From a phage, in the sequence record PZ386969.1: a DNA stretch of 64,000 nucleotides; one strand, given 5' to 3'. The position numbers and the translations under genes were made by a program. The number at the start of each line of letters is the position of its first letter. Within the stretch, counting starts at the first letter, position 1. The notes beneath the pieces are model-generated. The model saw nothing but the letters and a program-made list of their open reading frames with translations. It was not told the DNA's origin and made no database searches. Below, piece after piece: positions 1 to 59,212 of the stretch.

Positions 1-459
1 AGTAATGTTATCGAAAGCAAATGGCAGGGTCTCAGCAACCAGTAAGATTTCGTTAGTACGCCAGCAGTTGTCATACCCGTCAGTCATGAACGCCAGGTTG
101 TTGACGTAGCCGGGTTTCTTCAGGCCGCGCGCAGTATCCATCGCCAGTTTCAATGGCTCAACAAAACCAGTACAGCCGGATGGTTGCAGGAAACGGTCGA
201 TCAGTTTGTTCATCTCGCTCAGGTCAGATGCTGCACTAACCTGACGGCCAGCGAACACAGTACCAAAGTCGCCTTTGGAGGAGAAATACAGAACGCTCAC
301 AGTGTCTTCCGGCTTCACCAGGGATGGCAGGTTCTCCTTCAGGTGCTTGCGGACTTCAGGGAGCGCGCGGTACATAGAGCCGGAAATGTCTACAACGATT
401 ACATGGTTGGACGGAGCAGCAGTCGCAACCGCATTCTTAAATTCTAATGATTCAATCAT
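1..459 (-). CDS. von Willebrand factor A (vWA) domain protein; 3' end lies beyond the left window edge
   Basis: Minus-strand ORF from ATG at 457-459 running off the edge; N-terminus MIESLEFKNAVATAAPSNHVIVVDISGSMY carries the MIDAS DxSxS motif; ATGA overlap with upstream 71-aa ORF. Confidence 0.6.
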   Translation of the reverse strand, partial: MIESLEFKNAVATAAPSNHVIVVDISGSMYRALPEVRKHLKENLPSLVKPEDTVSVLYFSSKGDFGTVFAGRQVSAASDLSEMNKLIDRFLQPSGCTGFVEPLKLAMDTARGLKKPGYVNNLAFMTDGYDNCWRTNEILLVAETLPFAFDNIT

Positions 460-667
460 TGTTCTCTTCGCCTTGTGCGTAAGGGTTAAGTTCAGACTCA
501 TCAGCGGCTTCGATGCGCGTCTTTACAGAGTCCAGCATATTGTTGATAAACTCACGAGACTGCTCCAGCTGAGCCAAGAGCACATCCTTTGGAGCATAGT
601 TCTGAATGCAAGCCGGAATACTTTCAGACGTCGCCTTCAGGTCGGTAAAACATTCTTTCAGTATCAT
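452..667 (-). CDS. hypothetical protein (71 aa)
   Basis: ORF in track; stop overlaps vWA start (translational coupling); no recognisable motif. Confidence 0.4.
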   Translation of the reverse strand: MILKECFTDLKATSESIPACIQNYAPKDVLLAQLEQSREFINNMLDSVKTRIEAADESELNPYAQGEENND

Positions 668-735
668 TAGATCTCACTTAACAGAGACGACGCCCTGTTG
701 GGATTTAATAGCGGTCTTCACAGACATCAGGTTTC

Positions 736-762
736 CCTCAAAACAGGGGAGTCTCCTCCCCT
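736..762 (-). terminator. rho-independent terminator after the Nampt-like gene
   Basis: Stem AGGGGAG/CTCCCCT, loop TCTC, followed by TTTTG on the minus strand. Confidence 0.55.
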
Positions 763-769
763 TCGGTTA

Positions 770-2434
770 TCAGATTTGTGATGCCAGTTCTGCTACCAGA
801 GGAGCGGCGCGGACACGCGCATCTTCCAGTGTTTGAGTATTGAAGAACTCGCCATCACGATACACCAGCTGGTGCTGGTTGTCGGCGTCTTGCACCTGAT
901 CAAAGGTGATACCGTCAACCAACACTAGTTTACCCTGAGAGTCTTTAATGACTTTAAGGAAACCACGCGCAGACTTTTTAGTCCCGCCTTTATCGGTCTT
1001 CGGCTCTTTGAAGATCTCACGGAATTCACCGTTCACCTTACCAGCCGTGGCTTTCACTGCCGTGCCAGTACTGTCGCGGGTGTTCATCTGGTAGGTGTAG
1101 GAACCGATACCGAACACCACGTTGATGGAAGCGAAGTTCCGGCCAGCCAGACGGCTAAAGATCTGGTCTTCACGTGCCAGAGTGATGGAGTCACCGTAGA
1201 TCAGACCGATGTGTTCGTCCAACAGGAAGTGGCCAGTTTCAGTCTGGGTTCCACCAAAGATCTCCCACAGGCGCTGGATAGAGCCGACTGCTTCAGAACG
1301 GCTGATGATATTACGGTCATCTGCCATCAGAGAGTTGATCGTGCCTTCGCCTGTGATCAGGTGATAGGTGTTCGTCTCTTCGATGTGAATAACTTCGGTA
1401 CTGCTAGACACGCCGCTGATGTTCAGCGTGGCACGGTCTTTGAACCCCTCGATGCGGTAGCCGCCGACGATGTGCACAGGGTCGCCCGAGTCGGGGCGAA
1501 TCACGACTTTACCATTGCGCGCCATGATAATGTCTTTCAGGCGAGGTAGATAGTCGTCGATGACCTGCCAGTAATCCCACGCATCAGACACGATACTGAC
1601 GATGCCATCAGGATACACGTCCTGCACTAGGCGGCGGAAGGTTTCGAATTCACCATCCTTCGTGCCCATACACATCACCGCATGTTCCGTTGCGGCAACC
1701 GACCCAGCAACGACATAGTCTTCGTCGATGTCTGCGCCATAATACTCTTCTACGAAGTCCAGGGCAGGGTTGGTGTCGGTGCCTTTGAAGAACACCAGAT
1801 GACCGGAACCGGAAGACGCCGCGTCATGCCATCCGCTCATACCACGGAAGGAGAAGTCGTGGCCTTGGTAGTCGATGAACCAATGGTCTGGTGATACTCC
1901 CGTAGCGAGGGCAGCTTTCACCATCAGTGCCTTGTAATGCAGAGCTATGGTGGCGTTCGTCATCGGCTTCCAGATCTCAGAGCTGAACACAGTCTCCAGA
2001 TAGTTGGTCAGCCAGTAGAACTCCGGCAGGGTATTGAACATCACATACACCGGAACACCATACGGGCACATGGTGCCTTCAGGCAGCGCACGGACTTCGA
2101 TAGGCAGGTAGCCGAGGTCATGCAGGGCTTCAATATGCTCTGTGCCGACGCGGCCTGGACCCAGGACTTTGTTCATGCGACGGGCATACTTCTTCAGCAC
2201 CTTGGCCTTCGGGCACTGGAAGAATGCTTCGTCAAACAGTTCGTGGAACCAGGTCATGAAGCCCTGGATGCCCCAGACCACCACGCCGTTCTTCGGCAGG
2301 TGAGAGTTGAACAGTTTGTTAGAGCGCGGAGTTCCGTTGGAGAACACCAGCTCACTGCCTTCAGGGAACTGATAGATGTGCCCCGATTTGTAGAAGTCGA
2401 TTGCATGGATTGGGTCTAAGTGGCGCATGCTCAT
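770..2434 (-). CDS. nadV: nicotinamide phosphoribosyltransferase family protein (NadV/Nampt-like; candidate Namat)
   Basis: 554-aa ORF with ATG start and AGGA RBS; Nampt-like sequence recognised from memory; ATGA overlap with upstream Prs-like gene. Confidence 0.75.
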   Translation of the reverse strand: MSMRHLDPIHAIDFYKSGHIYQFPEGSELVFSNGTPRSNKLFNSHLPKNGVVVWGIQGFMTWFHELFDEAFFQCPKAKVLKKYARRMNKVLGPGRVGTEHIEALHDLGYLPIEVRALPEGTMCPYGVPVYVMFNTLPEFYWLTNYLETVFSSEIWKPMTNATIALHYKALMVKAALATGVSPDHWFIDYQGHDFSFRGMSGWHDAASSGSGHLVFFKGTDTNPALDFVEEYYGADIDEDYVVAGSVAATEHAVMCMGTKDGEFETFRRLVQDVYPDGIVSIVSDAWDYWQVIDDYLPRLKDIIMARNGKVVIRPDSGDPVHIVGGYRIEGFKDRATLNISGVSSSTEVIHIEETNTYHLITGEGTINSLMADDRNIISRSEAVGSIQRLWEIFGGTQTETGHFLLDEHIGLIYGDSITLAREDQIFSRLAGRNFASINVVFGIGSYTYQMNTRDSTGTAVKATAGKVNGEFREIFKEPKTDKGGTKKSARGFLKVIKDSQGKLVLVDGITFDQVQDADNQHQLVYRDGEFFNTQTLEDARVRAAPLVAELASQI

Positions 2435-3285
2435 TTTACACGTCCTGTATTTTCAGTTTTGAAAGGAAGCCCGTCGGCGGTGATGTTCTCCCACCAGACA
2501 GTGTCGGCATACACAGCATCATAGATCCCGTCGAAAACAGAGAGACCTTTGCTGAAGATGCCATGGGTAACGAAGAGCGTCATGTGCTTAGGCTTGTGCT
2601 TCTGAAGCTCTTTGCCTAACTCAACGAAAGTGCGCCCGCCGTCGCAGATATCATCAACCACAACCAGATAGCGGTCTTTGATCAGTTCAGGGTTCGTAAT
2701 ACTCACCCCAATGATCTCACCAGTCTTGGTGTCACGGTTCTTGTGACCGTAGACAACAGGAACACCGTCCAACGACAGGCTGAGGGCTTCGGTCTTCTTA
2801 GCCGCGCCGCCGTCAGGGGCTACCAACACAGCGTTGTTCCCACGGATGAACCAGCCCAGATACTGACGCACGATGTAATCTTGCGGGACAACATGGACGT
2901 TGTTGATCAGAGAAGACACAACATGGCTGTGAGGATCTTTGATCGCCACGCGGTCAAAGTTCATGCTATTGATGAACTCAGCCGCCCACTTCACAGACAG
3001 AGGCTCACCGAAGTCACAATGGCGGTCCTGGCGAGCATACGGGAAGTAAGGGATATACGCATGGAATGTCGTCAGACGGTCCACGTTACCCAGACCACGA
3101 ACGGCATTAACCAGAAGCGCCAGCTCAATGAAGTCGGCTGATGATTTGATGTGAGCATCAATCACCACGTTCTGAACGTGGCCGATAGGGATACCAGACT
3201 TTTGAATCTTGATATGTTCCTCACCACCTGGGAAGGTGAAGTGTTTGTAGAACACATCTTGGTCGTTCAATTTCAAACGAAACAT
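2431..3285 (-). CDS. ribose-phosphate pyrophosphokinase family protein (Prs-like; candidate ADP-ribose pyrophosphokinase Adps)
   Basis: 284 aa; FPYARQDR signature and VVVDDICDGG phosphoribosyl-binding loop; GAGG RBS. Confidence 0.7.
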   Translation of the reverse strand: MFRLKLNDQDVFYKHFTFPGGEEHIKIQKSGIPIGHVQNVVIDAHIKSSADFIELALLVNAVRGLGNVDRLTTFHAYIPYFPYARQDRHCDFGEPLSVKWAAEFINSMNFDRVAIKDPHSHVVSSLINNVHVVPQDYIVRQYLGWFIRGNNAVLVAPDGGAAKKTEALSLSLDGVPVVYGHKNRDTKTGEIIGVSITNPELIKDRYLVVVDDICDGGRTFVELGKELQKHKPKHMTLFVTHGIFSKGLSVFDGIYDAVYADTVWWENITADGLPFKTENTGRVK

Positions 3286-3393
3286 AATGCAGCCTCATGG
3301 TGTATTGTACAACCGTATTATACTGTGATGCACAAATTGAAACGTCCAGCATTTACGCTGGACGTTATTGATATTGAAAAGGTTTTGACAAAC

Positions 3394-4798: not shown

Positions 4799-6817
4799 TT
4801 AGAACACAACTTTCACAGTGCGGTTGAAAGAACCGCTCACCTTCACGAACACGTGGTTGCGTTGGGTGGTAGAGAAGCCCAGACCGGACAGCTGCTCAGT
4901 GCTTGGCTGTACTTTAATCTTACCACCTAACATTTCAAAAACCTTGCGGTGTTTATCAAGTTCCGGCTTCAGATATTCGTTATAGAAACCACGGGTGCCG
5001 ACAGGGTTAGCACAACCTTCCAGGATGAAGAACACGTGCTTGTTGCCAGTCTGCTCGCCGTCCCAATGGTTTGGTGAGTTCAGAACCAGCTGTACCTTCT
5101 GGAAGACGGAGGTCTTGATGCCCCAGATTTCCTGAGAGCGAGCGTCGTCTTTCAGGGTAGAACGGATGTCTACCACTTGTCCAGCGCGGACATCAATCAC
5201 AACAGCCAGAGTGCGATCTTTGTGCTTCAGGCCAGGATGCGAAAAACGCTTGGTCTGGCCTTTGTATTCAACTTCGATTTCGAAGCCCATATCACAGGTT
5301 TCACGCTGGCTGAAGTTAGTGACATAGAACTCGTACAGACCATCACGCAGCTTGCGTTCATCGCTGAAGAAGATGTTCTCCACCGGACGGCGGTTTGGAT
5401 CAATGCCGTCCATACCGTTCATGTCGATGTCTAGAGTTGCGCCAGTTGTCGAACGACGGTTGTGATAATACACGTGGTTGTGAAGAGGATCGTTCAGGCT
5501 CAGATCCAGGTCGTCGTTGTTATGCCAAGCCAGTGACACACGGAGGAAGCTGTCGACATTGCCGCCTGCGGTCTTCACGCGCTCTTTGATGGAGTCGGCC
5601 ACTTCGCCATTGTACGACCAGCTGAAGCCGTTGTTCCACTTGAACAGGTTAGGAGCGCCTGCGGTGGCCGGAGCGATCAGGGACATCAGGTTGCCAATGT
5701 GAGAGTTTTCGACCAGCACTTCCAGGGAATGCGCCTTTGGCAACAAGTTGGTCAGGAAGTCGTCGATCGTGATCTCTTCAACCTTGTCCAGGGACTTGGT
5801 CGGAGTCTTCACTTCAGACGCCAGCTGAGCAAACGGGTCCATCTTCTTCTGAGCTGCCAGATCGGCGAACAGAACGTTGTTGATGGTCAGATCGTCATAC
5901 ACGGCATAACGGCGACCCAGTGAATCAGTCAGACCCAGCGCTTCGACTTCTTTCTGCGCGTTTTCAATCATCGACTTCGTGACCAGCGCGGTTGGGCGCT
6001 TGTAGTTCGTCGGAGCGACTTTGGCTTCAAAGGACTTCACGGCGGTTTCCAGATCCCGGCCTTCATTGAGGTCTACCAGCAGAGAGCCAATCACGGTATT
6101 ACGAATGCCGTGAGGGGTATGACCGTTTGCACGGTAGCCAGTGCGCCAAGCCCACAGAGCGCGTTTCTCTTCTGCAGTTTGTTCGTACAGGGTCTTGTTC
6201 ACCACGAACGCCTGCACTGCCGCTTTGTGCTCTTCACCGCGATACAGAGAATTCTGGTCAATCAATTCCAGAACGATTTCAGCCGATTCCAGAGACAGTT
6301 CACGCAGGCCGCGCTCAAACACTTCAATCGCCTGGCGGATTTCACCCTTCTTAGAAGCGATGGTATCTGCCCGCAGAACATAGCTGCCCAGCAGGTCGGT
6401 GTGGAAGTGGTTGTAGGTGCGGACAATACCATCTTTCATTTCGTGATTCGACTCAACACCAACTTTCTTGGTGTCGTTGAAGTACACGTCGACGATTGCG
6501 TGCTGCTTAACGTATGCTGACAGCGCCGCAGCGACAACGTCGTATTCGTTACCCAACTGAATGTTATCCCAGATAGAGATCACGTTCAGGTCGGAGTCGA
6601 TGGTGACCACACCGCCGATGTTACGGATGAATTGTTTACAGCAGGTGCAGTCGTGCTCGGTACGCTCACGATAAAGCGGGTTAGTGCCAGCAGGGAAAGA
6701 AGACAGATACAGATCCCACAGAGCATCTTTATCGATGTTGGTCATGAACAGACCAGTTGCTGACATGGCCAGCACGTTATTGTTGACAGCTACTGCGAAG
6801 GGCTTAAAATCTGACAT
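4799..6817 (-). CDS. large hypothetical protein (672 aa) with N-terminal Cys cluster
   Basis: ATG start with AGGAAG RBS; HDCTCCKQF motif; no P-loop or other catalytic motif recognised. Confidence 0.6.
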   Translation of the reverse strand: MSDFKPFAVAVNNNVLAMSATGLFMTNIDKDALWDLYLSSFPAGTNPLYRERTEHDCTCCKQFIRNIGGVVTIDSDLNVISIWDNIQLGNEYDVVAAALSAYVKQHAIVDVYFNDTKKVGVESNHEMKDGIVRTYNHFHTDLLGSYVLRADTIASKKGEIRQAIEVFERGLRELSLESAEIVLELIDQNSLYRGEEHKAAVQAFVVNKTLYEQTAEEKRALWAWRTGYRANGHTPHGIRNTVIGSLLVDLNEGRDLETAVKSFEAKVAPTNYKRPTALVTKSMIENAQKEVEALGLTDSLGRRYAVYDDLTINNVLFADLAAQKKMDPFAQLASEVKTPTKSLDKVEEITIDDFLTNLLPKAHSLEVLVENSHIGNLMSLIAPATAGAPNLFKWNNGFSWSYNGEVADSIKERVKTAGGNVDSFLRVSLAWHNNDDLDLSLNDPLHNHVYYHNRRSTTGATLDIDMNGMDGIDPNRRPVENIFFSDERKLRDGLYEFYVTNFSQRETCDMGFEIEVEYKGQTKRFSHPGLKHKDRTLAVVIDVRAGQVVDIRSTLKDDARSQEIWGIKTSVFQKVQLVLNSPNHWDGEQTGNKHVFFILEGCANPVGTRGFYNEYLKPELDKHRKVFEMLGGKIKVQPSTEQLSGLGFSTTQRNHVFVKVSGSFNRTVKVVF

Positions 6818-6931: not shown

Positions 6932-8155
6932 TTATTCAGGTTTCTTCAAACGGTCCAGCAAATTGACGGAACCACGTTTGAGCACGACTTCATCACAACG
7001 TTGCTTATACGCACTACCATTCCCGTCATACCCCACCTTTCCTCGAGGTTTCTCCCCGCGCATCACTGCCTCAACACAGCGGGTATATTTCTGAAGTTCA
7101 CAGAACATGTTCTCCAGCTGCATAACATTCATGCAACGATCTTCCGGTTCTTCTGCCGACCAAAATTCATTACGTTTATACCCATACTGAGCGAACAATT
7201 GATCTTGATGATCACGAACCCAGAATATGCATTCTTCATGCGTCATGCCGTCCTTGTCCAAAAATAACAGATCGATACCAGCACGGCAACCTGGACCAGC
7301 GATAGTGAAGTGGTTTTCACTGAATGGATATTCATCGATGTATGTAAAATCAACCCAAATCTGGTATGCCAAGAATGGTCCAAGCCCCTCAATGTCGTCA
7401 TACATCGCCTGGTAAACAGAGTCGGGACGGCTAAATTCCCTGAGGCGATCAAAGTAATGAGGGTGTTTGTTGACGAATGCCTTCAGGGAGCGGATGACAC
7501 GCATTGGCATGTACGGTTCCCAACCTTCGATGGTGTAGAAGTCCGGCTCTGCTTCAGCGATGGCCTTGGCTTCCTTGTAATCCATGTTCTGGGTTGAACC
7601 GTCTTTACAGATCAGATTCACCATCATCCCACCGAAGCGCTGCTCCTTGTGGTTGACAACTAGTTCGGGGAAAGCCAGGCATTGTTTCAGACCGCCTGTA
7701 TTAAACGCATTGGTGAAAACTTTGCCACCTTTAGATTCGAATTCCTGAAGAACACTTCGACACCATTCAAGATTTATGTTTCCGAATTCTTCGATCGTCC
7801 ATGGACCACCCAAAGCCTGTATAGGTTCCCACATGTTGTACATGCGGAACAATACACAGTTGAACATTTTGTCAGATAGCGTGAGATCCTGATTGAGGAT
7901 GATATTATTGATCAAATTTCGAGACTGTCTATCGTGCTCTCTCCGCACGTTACAAAACTTGACTTGGCGTAATACCGGATTATCCGTCCATGGCGCTGGA
8001 AGGCATTGCACGTCCTTCTTGACATGTATCGCATAACGATCCCTCATCCATTCATATGCCAGCTGACGGTGGAATGAACTTAACATAGGATGGGCTGATT
8101 TGATTTTGGTTTCACGGACACCGCAATATGGGATGTCATATGGTTTATCTTTCAT
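6932..8155 (-). CDS. hypothetical protein (407 aa)
   Basis: ATG start with AGAGGA RBS; flanked by terminator hairpins 6848-6868 and 8179-8199; function not recognised. Confidence 0.6.
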   Translation of the reverse strand: MKDKPYDIPYCGVRETKIKSAHPMLSSFHRQLAYEWMRDRYAIHVKKDVQCLPAPWTDNPVLRQVKFCNVRREHDRQSRNLINNIILNQDLTLSDKMFNCVLFRMYNMWEPIQALGGPWTIEEFGNINLEWCRSVLQEFESKGGKVFTNAFNTGGLKQCLAFPELVVNHKEQRFGGMMVNLICKDGSTQNMDYKEAKAIAEAEPDFYTIEGWEPYMPMRVIRSLKAFVNKHPHYFDRLREFSRPDSVYQAMYDDIEGLGPFLAYQIWVDFTYIDEYPFSENHFTIAGPGCRAGIDLLFLDKDGMTHEECIFWVRDHQDQLFAQYGYKRNEFWSAEEPEDRCMNVMQLENMFCELQKYTRCVEAVMRGEKPRGKVGYDGNGSAYKQRCDEVVLKRGSVNLLDRLKKPE

Positions 8156-17458: not shown

Positions 17459-17881
17459 TTACAAAAGGCGCTTGGTCTTCGGCTTACCCATTAGAGTGAT
17501 ATCCACAGGGAGGCCAGCTTTCTTGCAACGGTTGATCATGTCCAGGGTGCCAGTGGACGAACCATCCCACATCGCAATCGGATACACTTCCAGCTTGGTC
17601 TGCCTGACGAGATCCAATGCCTTGTCTAACATGTCCTGATTGCGTTTGTTGCCCATCCCGTTCCCATACTTTTCATAATAGCTCGGAGGGATCGGCATGG
17701 GGGTGATATGAACATAATTGATTTCAGCCCAATCACGGCAAATCGTGTCGACACCCGTGGCCTCACCCTCGATCAACGTATAGACTTCATGAGGATCGAG
17801 GAGTTCGTCCAGCTTGGCGAATACCTTATCCCGCTCGGTGATTGAGCGGGAACCCGTAATGAGAACGATATACTTCTTCAT
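17459..17881 (-). CDS. hypothetical protein
   Basis: ORF in track; start moved to ATG MKKYIVLITGSR. Confidence 0.45.
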   Translation of the reverse strand: MKKYIVLITGSRSITERDKVFAKLDELLDPHEVYTLIEGEATGVDTICRDWAEINYVHITPMPIPPSYYEKYGNGMGNKRNQDMLDKALDLVRQTKLEVYPIAMWDGSSTGTLDMINRCKKAGLPVDITLMGKPKTKRLL

Positions 17882-17886
17882 AGAAC

Positions 17887-18231
17887 TCACAGCGCCCCAA
17901 GATTGCCGATTACGTACAGGGAGCACAGAGGAGTGCCTGACGAACGAGGTTCGATCGTCATCCCGCTCAGGCGGATCAGTTCCAGTAAGCCGTCAGTGGT
18001 CTGATACGCGCGTGTCGAACCGTTCGGTCGATATAGTTCCAGCTCAGTTCGCCCTTCCTTTAATGCATTTCGAATGCGCGTGAACACGCTGTGGTCGCCG
18101 AACTTCTGTTTCAGAATATCCAGTTTGGTGACCAGGCGACGCGATTTGCGTGGCTTACGCTCGCTCGGCTTTTCGAATTTGACGATGTGGGGGATCTCCA
18201 CGGATTTGTTCAGTTTGGTGTCTGCTGCCAT
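17887..18231 (-). CDS. hypothetical protein (basic)
   Basis: ORF in track with ATG. Confidence 0.45.
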   Translation of the reverse strand: MAADTKLNKSVEIPHIVKFEKPSERKPRKSRRLVTKLDILKQKFGDHSVFTRIRNALKEGRTELELYRPNGSTRAYQTTDGLLELIRLSGMTIEPRSSGTPLCSLYVIGNLGAL

Positions 18232-58747: not shown

Positions 58748-59212
58748 ATGAAAACCTTTCTTGAATATCTTAAAGAGGCGTCTGAGGCTGAACCCAAGTT
58801 CGATAACATGCGCCTCTTTCACGGCTCCAACGTAGAATTCGATGTCTTCGACTTTGAGCGCTTCGGTCAGACCGACTGTGGTACGATGGGACCTGGGTTC
58901 TATCTGACAGGCAACGAAGAAGAGGCACAGCGCTATGCAGAGAATGCCGTCCGCTACCGCCAGAGTGGTGAACCCCATGTTCTGGTGTTTAACGTCAGTG
59001 TTAAGAAGCCCCTCGAACTTGACTCTAACAATGTCTCGGCCTGGGAAGACGCTATGCGTGAACTTGGTATCGAACCGGGTAAGATCCATGAGAACGCCGC
59101 CGAGCTAATTGCTCAGGGCTATGACTCCACCATCGTGCTGGACCGCTTTGGGTTGCCTATGGTACGTGAGATCGTCCTGTACAAACCAGGCCTGGCAGTG
59201 CGGGAAGCCTAA
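58748..59212 (+). CDS. PARP-like (H-Y-E class) ADP-ribosyltransferase domain protein (154 aa)
   Basis: LFHGSNVEF ... GPGFYLTGNEEEAQRYA ... REIVLY parallels the PARP catalytic signature LWHGS ... GKGIYFADMVSKSANY ... NEYIVY; late-promoter hairpin immediately upstream. Confidence 0.5.
   Translation: MKTFLEYLKEASEAEPKFDNMRLFHGSNVEFDVFDFERFGQTDCGTMGPGFYLTGNEEEAQRYAENAVRYRQSGEPHVLVFNVSVKKPLELDSNNVSAWEDAMRELGIEPGKIHENAAELIAQGYDSTIVLDRFGLPMVREIVLYKPGLAVREA

What the first reader, a model, noticed from the sequence alone, without database searches (positions are those of the whole stretch)
770..3285. Coupled Prs-like + Nampt-like gene pair: candidate phage NAD+ reconstitution (NARP1-type) or NAD+ salvage module
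Two minus-strand genes overlap by ATGA at 2431-2434. The first is a 284-aa ribose-phosphate pyrophosphokinase-family protein (FPYARQDR, VVVDDICDGG); the second is a 554-aa nicotinamide phosphoribosyltransferase-family protein. A Prs-homologue plus Nampt-homologue pair in a phage is the architecture reported for NARP1 (Adps + Namat), which rebuilds NAD+ from ADP-ribose and nicotinamide to counter NAD+-depleting defences. The alternative is classical PRPP-to-NMN salvage, which would need an NMN adenylyltransferase that I do not see here. The operon has its own -10 TATAAT and continues into a 71-aa gene and a vWA gene.
Basis: partly seen in the sequence, partly recalled or inferred. Interest (0 to 1): 0.75.

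Follow-up and report, generated by a model that had tools for sequence, protein, structure and literature searches.

The report
Phage NAD+ rebuilding gene pair (NARP1)
This is an intact copy of NARP1, a known two-enzyme phage pathway that rebuilds NAD+ from the fragments left by NAD+-destroying bacterial defences; near-identical copies in sister phages are already listed in the discovery paper, so it is a correct call but not a new one.

Summary
Two minus-strand genes, 2431-3285 (284 aa, Prs family) and 770-2434 (554 aa, Nampt family), overlap by ATGA. The window comes from an Agtrevirus-like Ackermannviridae E. coli phage.

The NARP1 reading is supported.
- The Prs-like protein is 98.6% identical to the Salmonella phage SKML-39 protein in Table S1 of Osterman et al. 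That table marks it as having Namat nearby. Table S2 labels the SKML-39 Namat 'Adps-associated'.
- It scores like tested Adps enzymes on the Prs model: 107 bits, against 96-139 for tested Adps and 423 for E. coli Prs.
- The Nampt-like protein's closest solved structure is SPbetaL1 Namat, ahead of bacterial NadV and human Nampt.
- It keeps 16 of 20 NAD+-contact residues, the catalytic His and Arg, and a Namat-type clamp motif (GSYTYQMNTRD).
- I found no Nmnat, Macro or RyR partner in the window.

Caveats: two adenine-stacking positions are non-aromatic (L41, M450), and no Ackermannviridae NARP1 has been assayed. A 2024 Ackermannviridae review already makes this link.

New here: conserved hairpins bracket the cassette, and close relatives (Ag3, RPN242, fGh-Ecl02) carry three different deletions of it. 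Already known; low interest.

The parts
2431..3285 (-). adps: 284-aa ADPR-pyrophosphate synthetase (Prs-family, Adps clade)
   Evidence: ORF. Pfam Pribosyltran_N plus Pribosyltran and phrog_619. TIGR01251 106.6 bits, below the cut-off of 113. 98.6% identical to SKML-39 JX181829_00048, listed in Osterman Table S1.
770..2434 (-). namat: 554-aa nicotinamide ADPR-transferase (Nampt-family, Namat clade)
   Evidence: ORF. PF04095 and phrog_448. Best PDB match is SPbetaL1 Namat 9W5X, 453 bits, Foldseek TM 0.95. 46% identical to Bas63 Namat.
2431..2434 (-). ATGA stop/start overlap between adps and namat (translational coupling)
   Evidence: Sequence; AGGA lies about 10 nt upstream of the namat ATG.
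2713..2742 (-). Adps flexible-loop motif K182-x-R184-x3-T188-G189-x-I191, containing the catalytic Lys equivalent to SPbetaL1 Adps K162
   Evidence: MAFFT alignment with tested Adps sequences and E. coli Prs. The K162A mutant is inactive in Osterman et al..
2285..2323 (-). Namat selectivity-clamp loop (SCL), residues 38-50, SNKLFNSHLPKNG
   Evidence: Aligned to SPbetaL1 R40 (K40 here) and to Bas63 SDKWF. The SCL is defined in PMC12774641.
1073..1105 (-). Namat selectivity-clamp helix motif (SCH), GSYTYQMNTRD, residues 444-454
   Evidence: Motif scan. Matches the consensus GSX-phi-X-phi-X-phi-TRD from PMC12774641, with Met instead of an aromatic residue at position 7.
1286..1459 (-). 58-residue insertion (residues 326-383) after the catalytic RPDSGDP strand, predicted to fold as a small beta/alpha subdomain
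   Evidence: Gap against 9W5X. AF2 block-mean pLDDT is 83-96 across this stretch, with strands 328-331, 348-351 and 356-359 and helices 366-371 and 379-383. The site is hypervariable among homologues.
3317..3322 (-). TATAAT -10-like element 31 nt upstream of the adps ATG; no -35
   Evidence: Sequence. Not called by the sigma-70 scan. Conserved in LHE287 and in Kuttervirus allotria.
3341..3366 (-). 10-bp stem-loop between the upstream gene and the -10 element (likely terminator of the upstream unit, or a regulatory element)
   Evidence: dG -17.1 kcal/mol, z -4.63, 0 of 200 shuffles fold as well. In allotria the stem survives through G.U changes. It is retained in fGh-Ecl02, where the cassette is gone.
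745..762 (-). Terminator-like hairpin AGGGGAG-GAGA-CUCCCCU followed by GUUUUG, 8 nt after the namat stop
   Evidence: Fold (not significant against shuffles, z -0.96). The stem is conserved and the loop changed in allotria. Not called by the terminator scan.

Best explanation
The two genes are an intact NARP1 cassette of an Agtrevirus-like Ackermannviridae phage. When a host defence (SIR2-HerA/Nezha, DSR1/2, type I Thoeris, SEFIR and the like) cleaves NAD+ into ADP-ribose and nicotinamide, the first enzyme, Adps, uses ATP to pyrophosphorylate the free ribose of ADPR, giving ADPR-PP. The second enzyme, Namat, swaps that pyrophosphate for nicotinamide and gives NAD+ directly, with no NMN intermediate and no adenylyltransferase. 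The genes are translationally coupled through the ATGA overlap. They appear to form their own short transcription unit, bracketed by conserved hairpins. Shown here: gene structure, family and clade assignment, conservation of catalytic and most clamp residues, absence of an Nmnat partner in the window, and the accessory, frequently deleted nature of the cassette. Inferred by homology: the two reactions and the anti-defence phenotype.
For: (1) Osterman et al. Table S1 lists SKML-39 JX181829_00048 with 'Namat within 10 genes: Yes'. It is 98.6% identical to the window Adps. Table S2 lists JX181829_00049 as 'Adps-associated'. Klebsiella phage 0507-KN2-1 and Shigella phage Ag3 orthologues are also listed. 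(2) The best PDB sequence match for Namat is 9W5X/9W5W, the SPbetaL1 Namat, at 453 bits. H. ducreyi NadV 9KE8 scores 353 bits and mammalian Nampt about 171 bits. Foldseek on an AF2 model (pLDDT 91.9) gives the same order. (3) 16 of 20 NAD+-contact residues of SPbetaL1 Namat are identical, including D13, Y15, F194, R197, D220, R313 (equivalent to R306), D315, T452, R453 and D454. The catalytic His251 is kept. (4) The SCH motif GSYTYQMNTRD is of the Namat type. Bona fide Nampts have GAQTYQRNTRD (HdNadV), GGALLQKVDRD (Xcc) and GGGLLQMVNRD (Aeromonas phage 25 NadV). (5) Identity is 46% to Bas63 Namat (tested in vivo) and 49% to SPbetaL1 Namat, against 29% to a T4-like phage NadV. (6) Adps scores 106.6 bits on TIGR01251. 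Tested Adps score 138.5 (Bas63), 106.0 (SPbetaL1) and 96.5 (FADO); E. coli Prs scores 422.7. The catalytic Lys (K162 of SPbetaL1, K182 here) and every Adps-conserved position that differs from E. coli Prs in a 12-sequence alignment are kept. (7) No CTP_transf_like/Nmnat, NUDIX, Macro or RyR domain was found in the ORFs I scanned with Pfam: the finding's neighbours and all selected ORFs of at least 100 aa beyond 8.2 kb. (8) The cassette is accessory and often deleted in close relatives, as expected for an anti-defence module.
Against: No Ackermannviridae NARP1 has been assayed; I found no paper that holds both NARP1 and an Ackermannviridae name. Two of the three adenine-stacking positions of the selectivity clamp are non-aromatic here: L41 after K40, where Bas63 has W, and M450, where SPbetaL1 and Bas63 have Y. 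Double clamp mutants of SPbetaL1 Namat lose 2.4- to 16.6-fold activity, so ADPR-PP preference could be weaker. Pairwise BLAST does not by itself separate Adps from Prs: the window protein scores 73 bits against E. coli Prs and 65 against FADO Adps. Only 64 kb of a roughly 150-kb genome was swept for an Nmnat.
Confidence: 0.87

Rival explanations
1. Classical salvage: the first enzyme is a true PRPP synthetase and the second a true Nampt. Together they make NMN, and host NadR or PncC/NadD/NadE finishes NAD+.
For: Both proteins match the Prs and Nampt families. SPbetaL1 Namat can still make NMN from PRPP in vitro. The clamp is weakened at L41 and M450. E. coli has NadR and PncC, as stated in Osterman et al..
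Against: The Prs-like protein scores four-fold below E. coli Prs and below every NCBIfam Prs cut-off, in the range of tested Adps. Osterman et al. conclude that SPbetaL1 Adps is not a Prs: it gave no product in the Prs-type control but made ADPR-PP from ADPR and ATP. Bas63 still overcame defence in delta-pncC delta-nadR cells. The Namat-type motif and the closest structure argue against a plain Nampt.
Confidence: 0.06
2. NARP2-type pathway: a Nampt that works with a phage Nmnat encoded elsewhere in the genome.
For: About 20% of phage Namat/Nampt homologues belong to that pathway. Only 64 kb of the genome was examined here.
Against: Osterman Table S2 puts the SKML-39 orthologue in the Adps-associated class, and the authors found no phage with both pathways. 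Identity to a T4-like phage NadV is only 29%, and that protein has a different SCH-equivalent motif. No Nmnat domain was found in the window.
Confidence: 0.02
3. Nucleotide-precursor supply: the pair boosts PRPP for purine and pyrimidine synthesis during replication, as suggested in the AV101 genome paper.
For: Proposed in PMC10791037. The phage carries other nucleotide-metabolism genes, including a 5-hmdU DNA kinase at 6932-8155.
Against: A Nampt-family partner has no role in PRPP supply. Osterman et al. conclude the tested Adps is not a Prs. The pair is dispensable, being absent or broken in close relatives.
Confidence: 0.03

Closest known systems
NARP1 of Escherichia phage Bas63 (JohannRWettstein) genes 79-80, Felixounavirus (Osterman et al. 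2024)
   Same: Same order (adps then namat), same host genus, and the same Gram-negative-type Adps motif DDICDGGRTF. The Namat SCL has the same length and a similar sequence (SDKWFNSPL in Bas63, SNKLFNSHL here). Both Namats carry an insertion after RPDSGDPVHIV.
   Different: Adps is only 36% identical and Namat 43-46%. The genes overlap by ATGA here; Bas63 has a 45-nt gap. SCL position 4 is Leu, not Trp. SCH position 7 is Met, not Tyr. The insertion is shorter (58 residues against about 95) and unrelated in sequence.
NARP1 of Bacillus phage SPbetaL1 (Adps WIT26982.1; Namat PDB 9W5X/9W5W)
   Same: Namat is 49% identical over 461 residues. 16 of 20 NAD+ contacts, the catalytic His and R306 are kept. 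Foldseek TM 0.95 normalised to the target. The Adps catalytic Lys is kept.
   Different: Adps is 32% identical, with the phosphoribosyl loop DDICDGGRT instead of DDLSSFGGT. Namat differs at R40K, A362S, F392Y and Y396M, has a 4-residue longer SCL, and has a 58-residue inserted subdomain that SPbetaL1 lacks.
Orthologous pairs in Ackermannviridae: Salmonella phage SKML-39, Shigella phages ChubbyThor and MK-13, E. coli phages LHE287, AV101 and YX22, Kuttervirus allotria
   Same: 95-98% DNA identity in Agtrevirus-like phages and 92-93% in Kuttervirus. Synteny with the small ORF, vWA and ACP-like genes is the same, as are the flanking hairpins.
   Different: None of substance; this is the same cassette. 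In Kuttervirus the upstream neighbour differs, and the gap downstream of namat is 39 nt instead of 102 nt.
NARP2 (Nampt plus Nmnat) of Vibrio phage KVP40 and T4-like phages
   Same: A Nampt-family enzyme that uses nicotinamide, with the same end product (NAD+) and the same anti-defence logic.
   Different: NARP2 needs an Nmnat and goes through PRPP and NMN. There is no Prs-like partner. The SCH-equivalent is GGGLLQMVNRD in Aeromonas phage 25 NadV, which is 29% identical to the window Namat.
Bacterial Prs (E. coli prs b1207) and bacterial NadV (H. ducreyi, PDB 9KE8)
   Same: Same folds and shared catalytic cores.
   Different: E. coli Prs is 27% identical, and Adps lacks the N- and C-terminal extensions of Prs. 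HdNadV lacks the aromatic clamp residues, having GAQTYQRNTRD.

Membership tests
NARP1 (Adps + Namat) | Prs-family gene and Nampt-family gene adjacent and co-oriented, Prs-like gene first | tested here: met
   ORFs 2431-3285(-) and 770-2434(-) overlap by ATGA.
NARP1 (Adps + Namat) | The Prs-like protein belongs to the Adps clade, not to bona fide Prs | tested here: met
   98.6% identical to the SKML-39 protein in Osterman Table S1, which is marked as having Namat nearby. TIGR01251 gives 106.6 bits, against 96-139 for three tested Adps and 423 for E. coli Prs.
NARP1 (Adps + Namat) | Adps catalytic lysine (SPbetaL1 K162) | tested here: met
   K182 aligns with K162 and is conserved in all 11 Adps-clade sequences aligned.
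NARP1 (Adps + Namat) | Namat catalytic core (F189, R192, D215, H245, R306, D308 of SPbetaL1) | tested here: met
   F194, R197, D220, H251, R313 and D315 are all identical.
NARP1 (Adps + Namat) | [quoted passage not shown] | tested here: inconclusive
   The motif is GSYTYQMNTRD: right length and pattern, Y at position 3, but Met at position 7. Met at this position recurs in about 12 of the 120 closest homologues.
NARP1 (Adps + Namat) | SCL supplies an adenine-stacking residue: the third residue is R, K or Y, and if it is K or Y the fourth residue stacks | tested here: inconclusive
   The third residue is K40 (allowed). The fourth is L41, not aromatic; F42 follows. [KR]-L-F is a recurrent variant among homologues.
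NARP1 (Adps + Namat) | ADPR plus ATP gives ADPR-PP; ADPR-PP plus nicotinamide gives NAD+ | not testable with these tools
   Needs enzyme assays with LC-MS.
NARP1 (Adps + Namat) | Protects the phage from NAD+-depleting defence systems | not testable with these tools
   Needs plaque assays with a deletion mutant.
NARP1-AP (NARP1 with Macro-domain phosphatase Adpp) | Macro-domain gene within two genes of the NARP1 pair | tested here: not met
   The two upstream and two downstream neighbours have no Macro domain. The matches found were VWA (on the LHE287 orthologue of the vWA gene) and a sub-threshold NagJ_C hit on the second upstream gene; the rest had none.
NARP1 with RyDEP (RyR-domain glycosidase) | PF02026 RyR-domain gene inside or next to the operon | tested here: not met
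   No RyR match in the neighbours or in the window sweep.
NARP2 (Nampt + Nmnat) | Nmnat (CTP_transf_like) gene in the same phage | tested here: not met
   None in the ORFs scanned with Pfam. The rest of the genome was not examined. The SKML-39 orthologue is classed as Adps-associated in Table S2.
Ribose-phosphate diphosphokinase (Prs, EC 2.7.6.1) | Reaches NCBIfam curated cut-offs for Prs models | tested here: not met
   TIGR01251 gives 106.6 bits against a cut-off of 113. PRK01259 gives 83 against 297. All equivalog models are far below cut-off. E. coli Prs passes with 423 and 533 bits.

The most novel reading that the evidence does not exclude
The Ackermannviridae Namat may be a functional variant of NARP1 rather than a plain copy. 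Two of its three adenine-stacking clamp positions are non-aromatic (L41, M450). It also carries a confidently folded 58-residue subdomain inserted right after the catalytic RPDSGDP strand. Together these could relax or shift donor specificity (dual use of PRPP and ADPR-PP, or acceptance of modified ADPR derivatives). The insert could instead mediate regulation or hand-over of the labile ADPR-PP from Adps.
Probability: 0.1. Interest if true: 0.45.

Novelty: already known. Interest (0 to 1): 0.2.

Why it matters
It matters little as a discovery. NARP1 was described in 2024, its Namat structure was solved in 2025, and orthologues 98-99% identical to these two proteins are in the discovery paper's supplementary tables. 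A 2024 Ackermannviridae review already links the 'NAMPT plus RPPK' genes to NAD+ reconstitution. Two practical points remain. GenBank records still label the pair 'ribose-phosphate pyrophosphokinase' and 'nicotinamide phosphoribosyltransferase', which misstates the chemistry. And Ackermannviridae are therapy and biocontrol candidates, so whether a given isolate carries an intact cassette (this phage, LHE287, AV101) or a broken one (Ag3, RPN242, fGh-Ecl02) should predict its ability to plate on strains with NAD+-depleting defences. These natural variants form a ready-made isogenic-like panel for testing that.

Tried and rejected
- Pairwise BLAST as a discriminator between Adps and Prs. It is not decisive: the window protein scores 73 bits against E. 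coli Prs and 65 against tested FADO Adps. I used curated-model scores with controls instead.
- A sigma-70 promoter for the cassette. The TATAAT is real and conserved, but no -35 exists at any 15-18 nt spacing, and the scan did not call it.
- An intrinsic terminator after namat. The hairpin is conserved, but the tool did not call it and it is not better than shuffles (z -0.96). I kept it as 'possible'.
- Extended NARP1 variants (Macro-domain Adpp, RyR-domain RyDEP). I looked for them in the neighbours and across the window and found none.
- Compositional anomaly as a sign of recent acquisition. GC is 0.52-0.55 against 0.47-0.51 in the immediate flanks, but 5.2-6.4 kb is similar. Not informative.
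- Literature on an Adps structure or signature. None exists; the NAR 2026 paper says the structure is unresolved.
Full report
**Observation.** The window holds two minus-strand ORFs exactly as described: 2431..3285 (284 aa) and 770..2434 (554 aa). Plus-strand 2431-2434 is TCAT, so on the coding strand the stop of the first gene and the start of the second share ATGA. An AGGA lies about 10 nt upstream. The first protein matches Pribosyltran_N plus Pribosyltran and phrog_619 'ribose-phosphate pyrophosphokinase' (E 1e-90). The second matches PF04095, NF006629 (469 bits) and phrog_448 'nicotinamide phosphoribosyl transferase' (E 1e-192). The quoted motifs are there. A TATAAT sits at 3322..3317, 31 nt upstream of the ATG. 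It has no -35 partner, and the sigma-70 scan did not call it.

**Source.** The region is 97-98% identical to the E. coli phages LHE287, YX22 and AV101, and about 95% identical to Salmonella phage SKML-39 and the Shigella phages MK-13 and ChubbyThor. It is 92-93% identical to Kuttervirus phages. The window also carries a 5-hmdU DNA kinase, T4-like portal, capsid, sheath and clamp-loader genes, and TSP-type tail spikes. It is therefore an Agtrevirus-like member of the Ackermannviridae.

**What it is.** NARP1 was defined by Osterman et al. (bioRxiv 10.1101/2024.02.11.579819).
- A Prs-like enzyme, Adps, pyrophosphorylates ADP-ribose to ADPR-PP.
- A Nampt-like enzyme, Namat, joins ADPR-PP and nicotinamide to give NAD+.
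- The pair lets phages escape SIR2-HerA, DSR1/2, Thoeris and SEFIR.

Their Table S1 lists SKML-39 JX181829_00048 with 'Namat within 10 genes: Yes'. Table S2 lists JX181829_00049 as 'Adps-associated'. Klebsiella phage 0507-KN2-1 and Shigella phage Ag3 orthologues are listed too. The window Adps is 98.6% identical to the SKML-39 protein. The window Namat is 99% identical to the ChubbyThor cluster. The cassette is thus among the 859 phage NARP1 loci already counted.

**Independent checks on Namat.**
- By sequence, the best PDB matches are 9W5X/9W5W at 453 bits (E 1e-134). The NAR 2026 paper identifies these as SPbetaL1 Namat. Next come 9KE8 (H. ducreyi NadV) at 353 bits and mammalian Nampt at about 171 bits.
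- An AF2 model (pLDDT 91.9, pTM 0.92) gives the same order by Foldseek: Namat at E 7e-56 and TM 0.95, HdNadV at E 2e-48, Nampt at E 8e-40.
- I mapped the published NAD+ contacts of SPbetaL1 Namat onto the window protein. 16 of 20 are identical, as are the catalytic His (H251) and R306 (R313). The changes are R40K, A362S, F392Y and Y396M.
- The published Namat signature is GSX-phi-X-phi-X-phi-TRD. It reads GSYTYQMNTRD here. Bona fide Nampts read GAQTYQRNTRD (HdNadV), GGALLQKVDRD (Xcc, 7YQO) and GGGLLQMVNRD (Aeromonas phage 25 NadV).
- All 120 closest database homologues carry the Namat-type motif. One of them lies in the Fibrella aestuarina chromosome, and it too sits directly after a Prs-like gene.
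- Identity is 46% to Bas63 Namat and 49% to SPbetaL1 Namat, against 29% to the T4-like phage NadV.

**Independent checks on Adps.** No Adps structure exists, and pairwise BLAST is not decisive. On NCBI's curated Prs models the window protein scores 106.6 bits on TIGR01251 (cut-off 113) and 83 bits on PRK01259 (cut-off 297). The same scan on controls gave the following:

| Protein | TIGR01251 (bits) |
|---|---|
| Window Adps | 106.6 |
| Bas63 Adps (tested) | 138.5 |
| SPbetaL1 Adps (tested) | 106.0 |
| FADO Adps (tested) | 96.5 |
| Fibrella Namat-adjacent protein | 122.8 |
| E. coli Prs | 422.7 |

E. coli Prs also scored 532.6 bits on PRK01259. In an alignment of 11 Adps-clade proteins and E. 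coli Prs, the catalytic Lys (SPbetaL1 K162; K162A is inactive) is K182 here. Every position that is conserved in the Adps set but different in E. coli Prs is kept in the window protein: P82, N106, P118, S120, V122, A161, K182, T188, G189, I191, F220 and L237.

**Partners.** I found no Nmnat/CTP_transf_like, NUDIX, Macro (NARP1-AP) or RyR (RyDEP) domain. This covers the two genes on each side and a Pfam sweep of 47 further ORFs of the window. This is the plain two-gene form.

**Caveats.** Nobody has assayed an Ackermannviridae NARP1. Two of the three adenine-stacking positions are non-aromatic. L41 follows K40, where Bas63 has W. M450 stands where both tested Namats have Y. Double clamp mutants of SPbetaL1 Namat lose 2.4- to 16.6-fold activity, whereas single mutants lose under 2-fold. 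[KR]-L-F in the loop and Met at motif position 7 both recur among homologues, so this looks like family variation. Weaker ADPR-PP selectivity still cannot be excluded.

**Anatomy beyond the finding.**
- The Namat has a 58-residue insertion (residues 326-383) after the RPDSGDP strand, predicted as a small folded beta/alpha unit. The site is hypervariable across homologues, with 0 to about 80 extra residues. Bas63 Namat has a longer, unrelated insert at the same place.
- The cassette is bracketed by two hairpins. The first is at 3341-3366 (dG -17.1, z -4.6), just upstream of the -10 element. The second is a GGGGAG/CUCCCC stem plus GUUUUG at 745-762, 8 nt after the stop.
- Both hairpins are conserved in Kuttervirus allotria. 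The upstream one survives through G.U changes, and the downstream one has a changed loop.
- This favours a separate two-gene unit over an operon that runs on into the 71-aa and vWA genes. Synteny with those genes is nevertheless conserved.

**Loss in relatives.** The upstream flank occurs in 239 phage records, but the cassette in only 95.
- Ag3 has an in-frame 864-bp deletion (window 1757-2620). It fuses Adps 1-222 to Namat 229-554, which explains phrog_12872 and P0129.
- RPN242 is 98.7-98.9% identical in the upstream flank. It has lost window 722-1164 and 1310-3134, keeping the -10 element, 49 Adps codons and a 145-nt Namat scrap, annotated as a 77-aa gene.
- fGh-Ecl02 has window 464-3334 replaced by about 570 nt holding a 120-aa ORF.

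These are three independent events. They fit the report that 8 of 14 Agtrevirus genomes carry the pair, and they fit an accessory anti-defence role.

**Comparison and verdict.** The pair works like NARP1 and meets its membership tests, except that two clamp features are met only in variant form. It fails the tests for bona fide Prs, NARP2, NARP1-AP and RyDEP-linked NARP1. A 2024 Ackermannviridae review already links these genes to Osterman et al..

Noticed in passing
window 722-3334 compared with L009 (Shigella phage Ag3), L007 (E. coli phage RPN242) and L008 (Enterobacter phage fGh-Ecl02): Three different deletions of the NARP1 cassette occur in close relatives. Ag3 has an in-frame 864-bp deletion that fuses Adps 1-222 to Namat 229-554. 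RPN242 has two deletions, leaving 49 Adps codons and a 145-nt Namat scrap annotated as a 77-aa gene. fGh-Ecl02 has the whole cassette replaced by about 570 nt holding a 120-aa ORF. The cassette is being lost repeatedly rather than gained.
   Followed up: yes
window 1286-1459 (Namat residues 326-383): A 58-residue insertion after the catalytic RPDSGDP strand is confidently predicted as a small beta/alpha subdomain. The same site holds inserts of 0 to about 80 residues, unrelated in sequence, across phage Namats, Bas63 included. The Namat structure paper does not mention it.
   Followed up: partly
L003 3361-8174 (Fibrella aestuarina chromosome HE796683): A chromosomal row of genes encodes an NrtR-like Nudix regulator, a Prs-like 302-aa protein, a Namat-type 488-aa protein (GSYTYEYVTRD), DUF4291 and an ADP-ribosylglycohydrolase. 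It looks like a housekeeping ADPR-to-NAD+ recycling operon under NAD regulation.
   Followed up: partly
window 58748-59212 (+): A 154-aa stand-alone protein matches ART-PolyVal (E 2.7e-10) and DUF3990. It is a putative NAD+-consuming ADP-ribosyltransferase in the same phage that carries NARP1.
   Followed up: no
window 17459-17926 (-): A 155-aa protein matches the YAcAr (YspA-related) SLOG family (E 3.5e-11), a domain class predicted to bind nucleotide-derived ligands.
   Followed up: no
window 3341-3366: A strong 10-bp stem-loop (z -4.6) lies between the upstream gene and the adps -10 element. It is kept in Kuttervirus through G.U-compatible changes, and it is retained in fGh-Ecl02 even though the cassette is gone. 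It is probably the terminator of the upstream unit.
   Followed up: partly
window 1-459 and 452-667 (-); L001 3493-6268: Downstream of NARP1, and conserved across genera, lie a small ORF (71 aa here, 56 aa in Kuttervirus), a 733-aa protein with an N-terminal vWA domain that overlaps it by 8 nt, and a 107-aa acyl-carrier-protein-like gene (PP-binding). Their function is unknown.
   Followed up: no
window 4799-6817 (-): A 672-aa protein has no Pfam match but a full-length match to phrog_1735 (unknown function). Some GenBank records annotate it as 'putative DNA-directed RNA polymerase'. It sits between NARP1 and the 5-hmdU DNA kinase gene.
   Followed up: no
window 27727-63281 (Pfam sweep A2): One of the large ORFs in this stretch matches Intein_splicing (E 7.6e-7), and Terminase_6N and Terminase_6C also match. 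The terminase large subunit may carry an intein. I did not localise the match.
   Followed up: no
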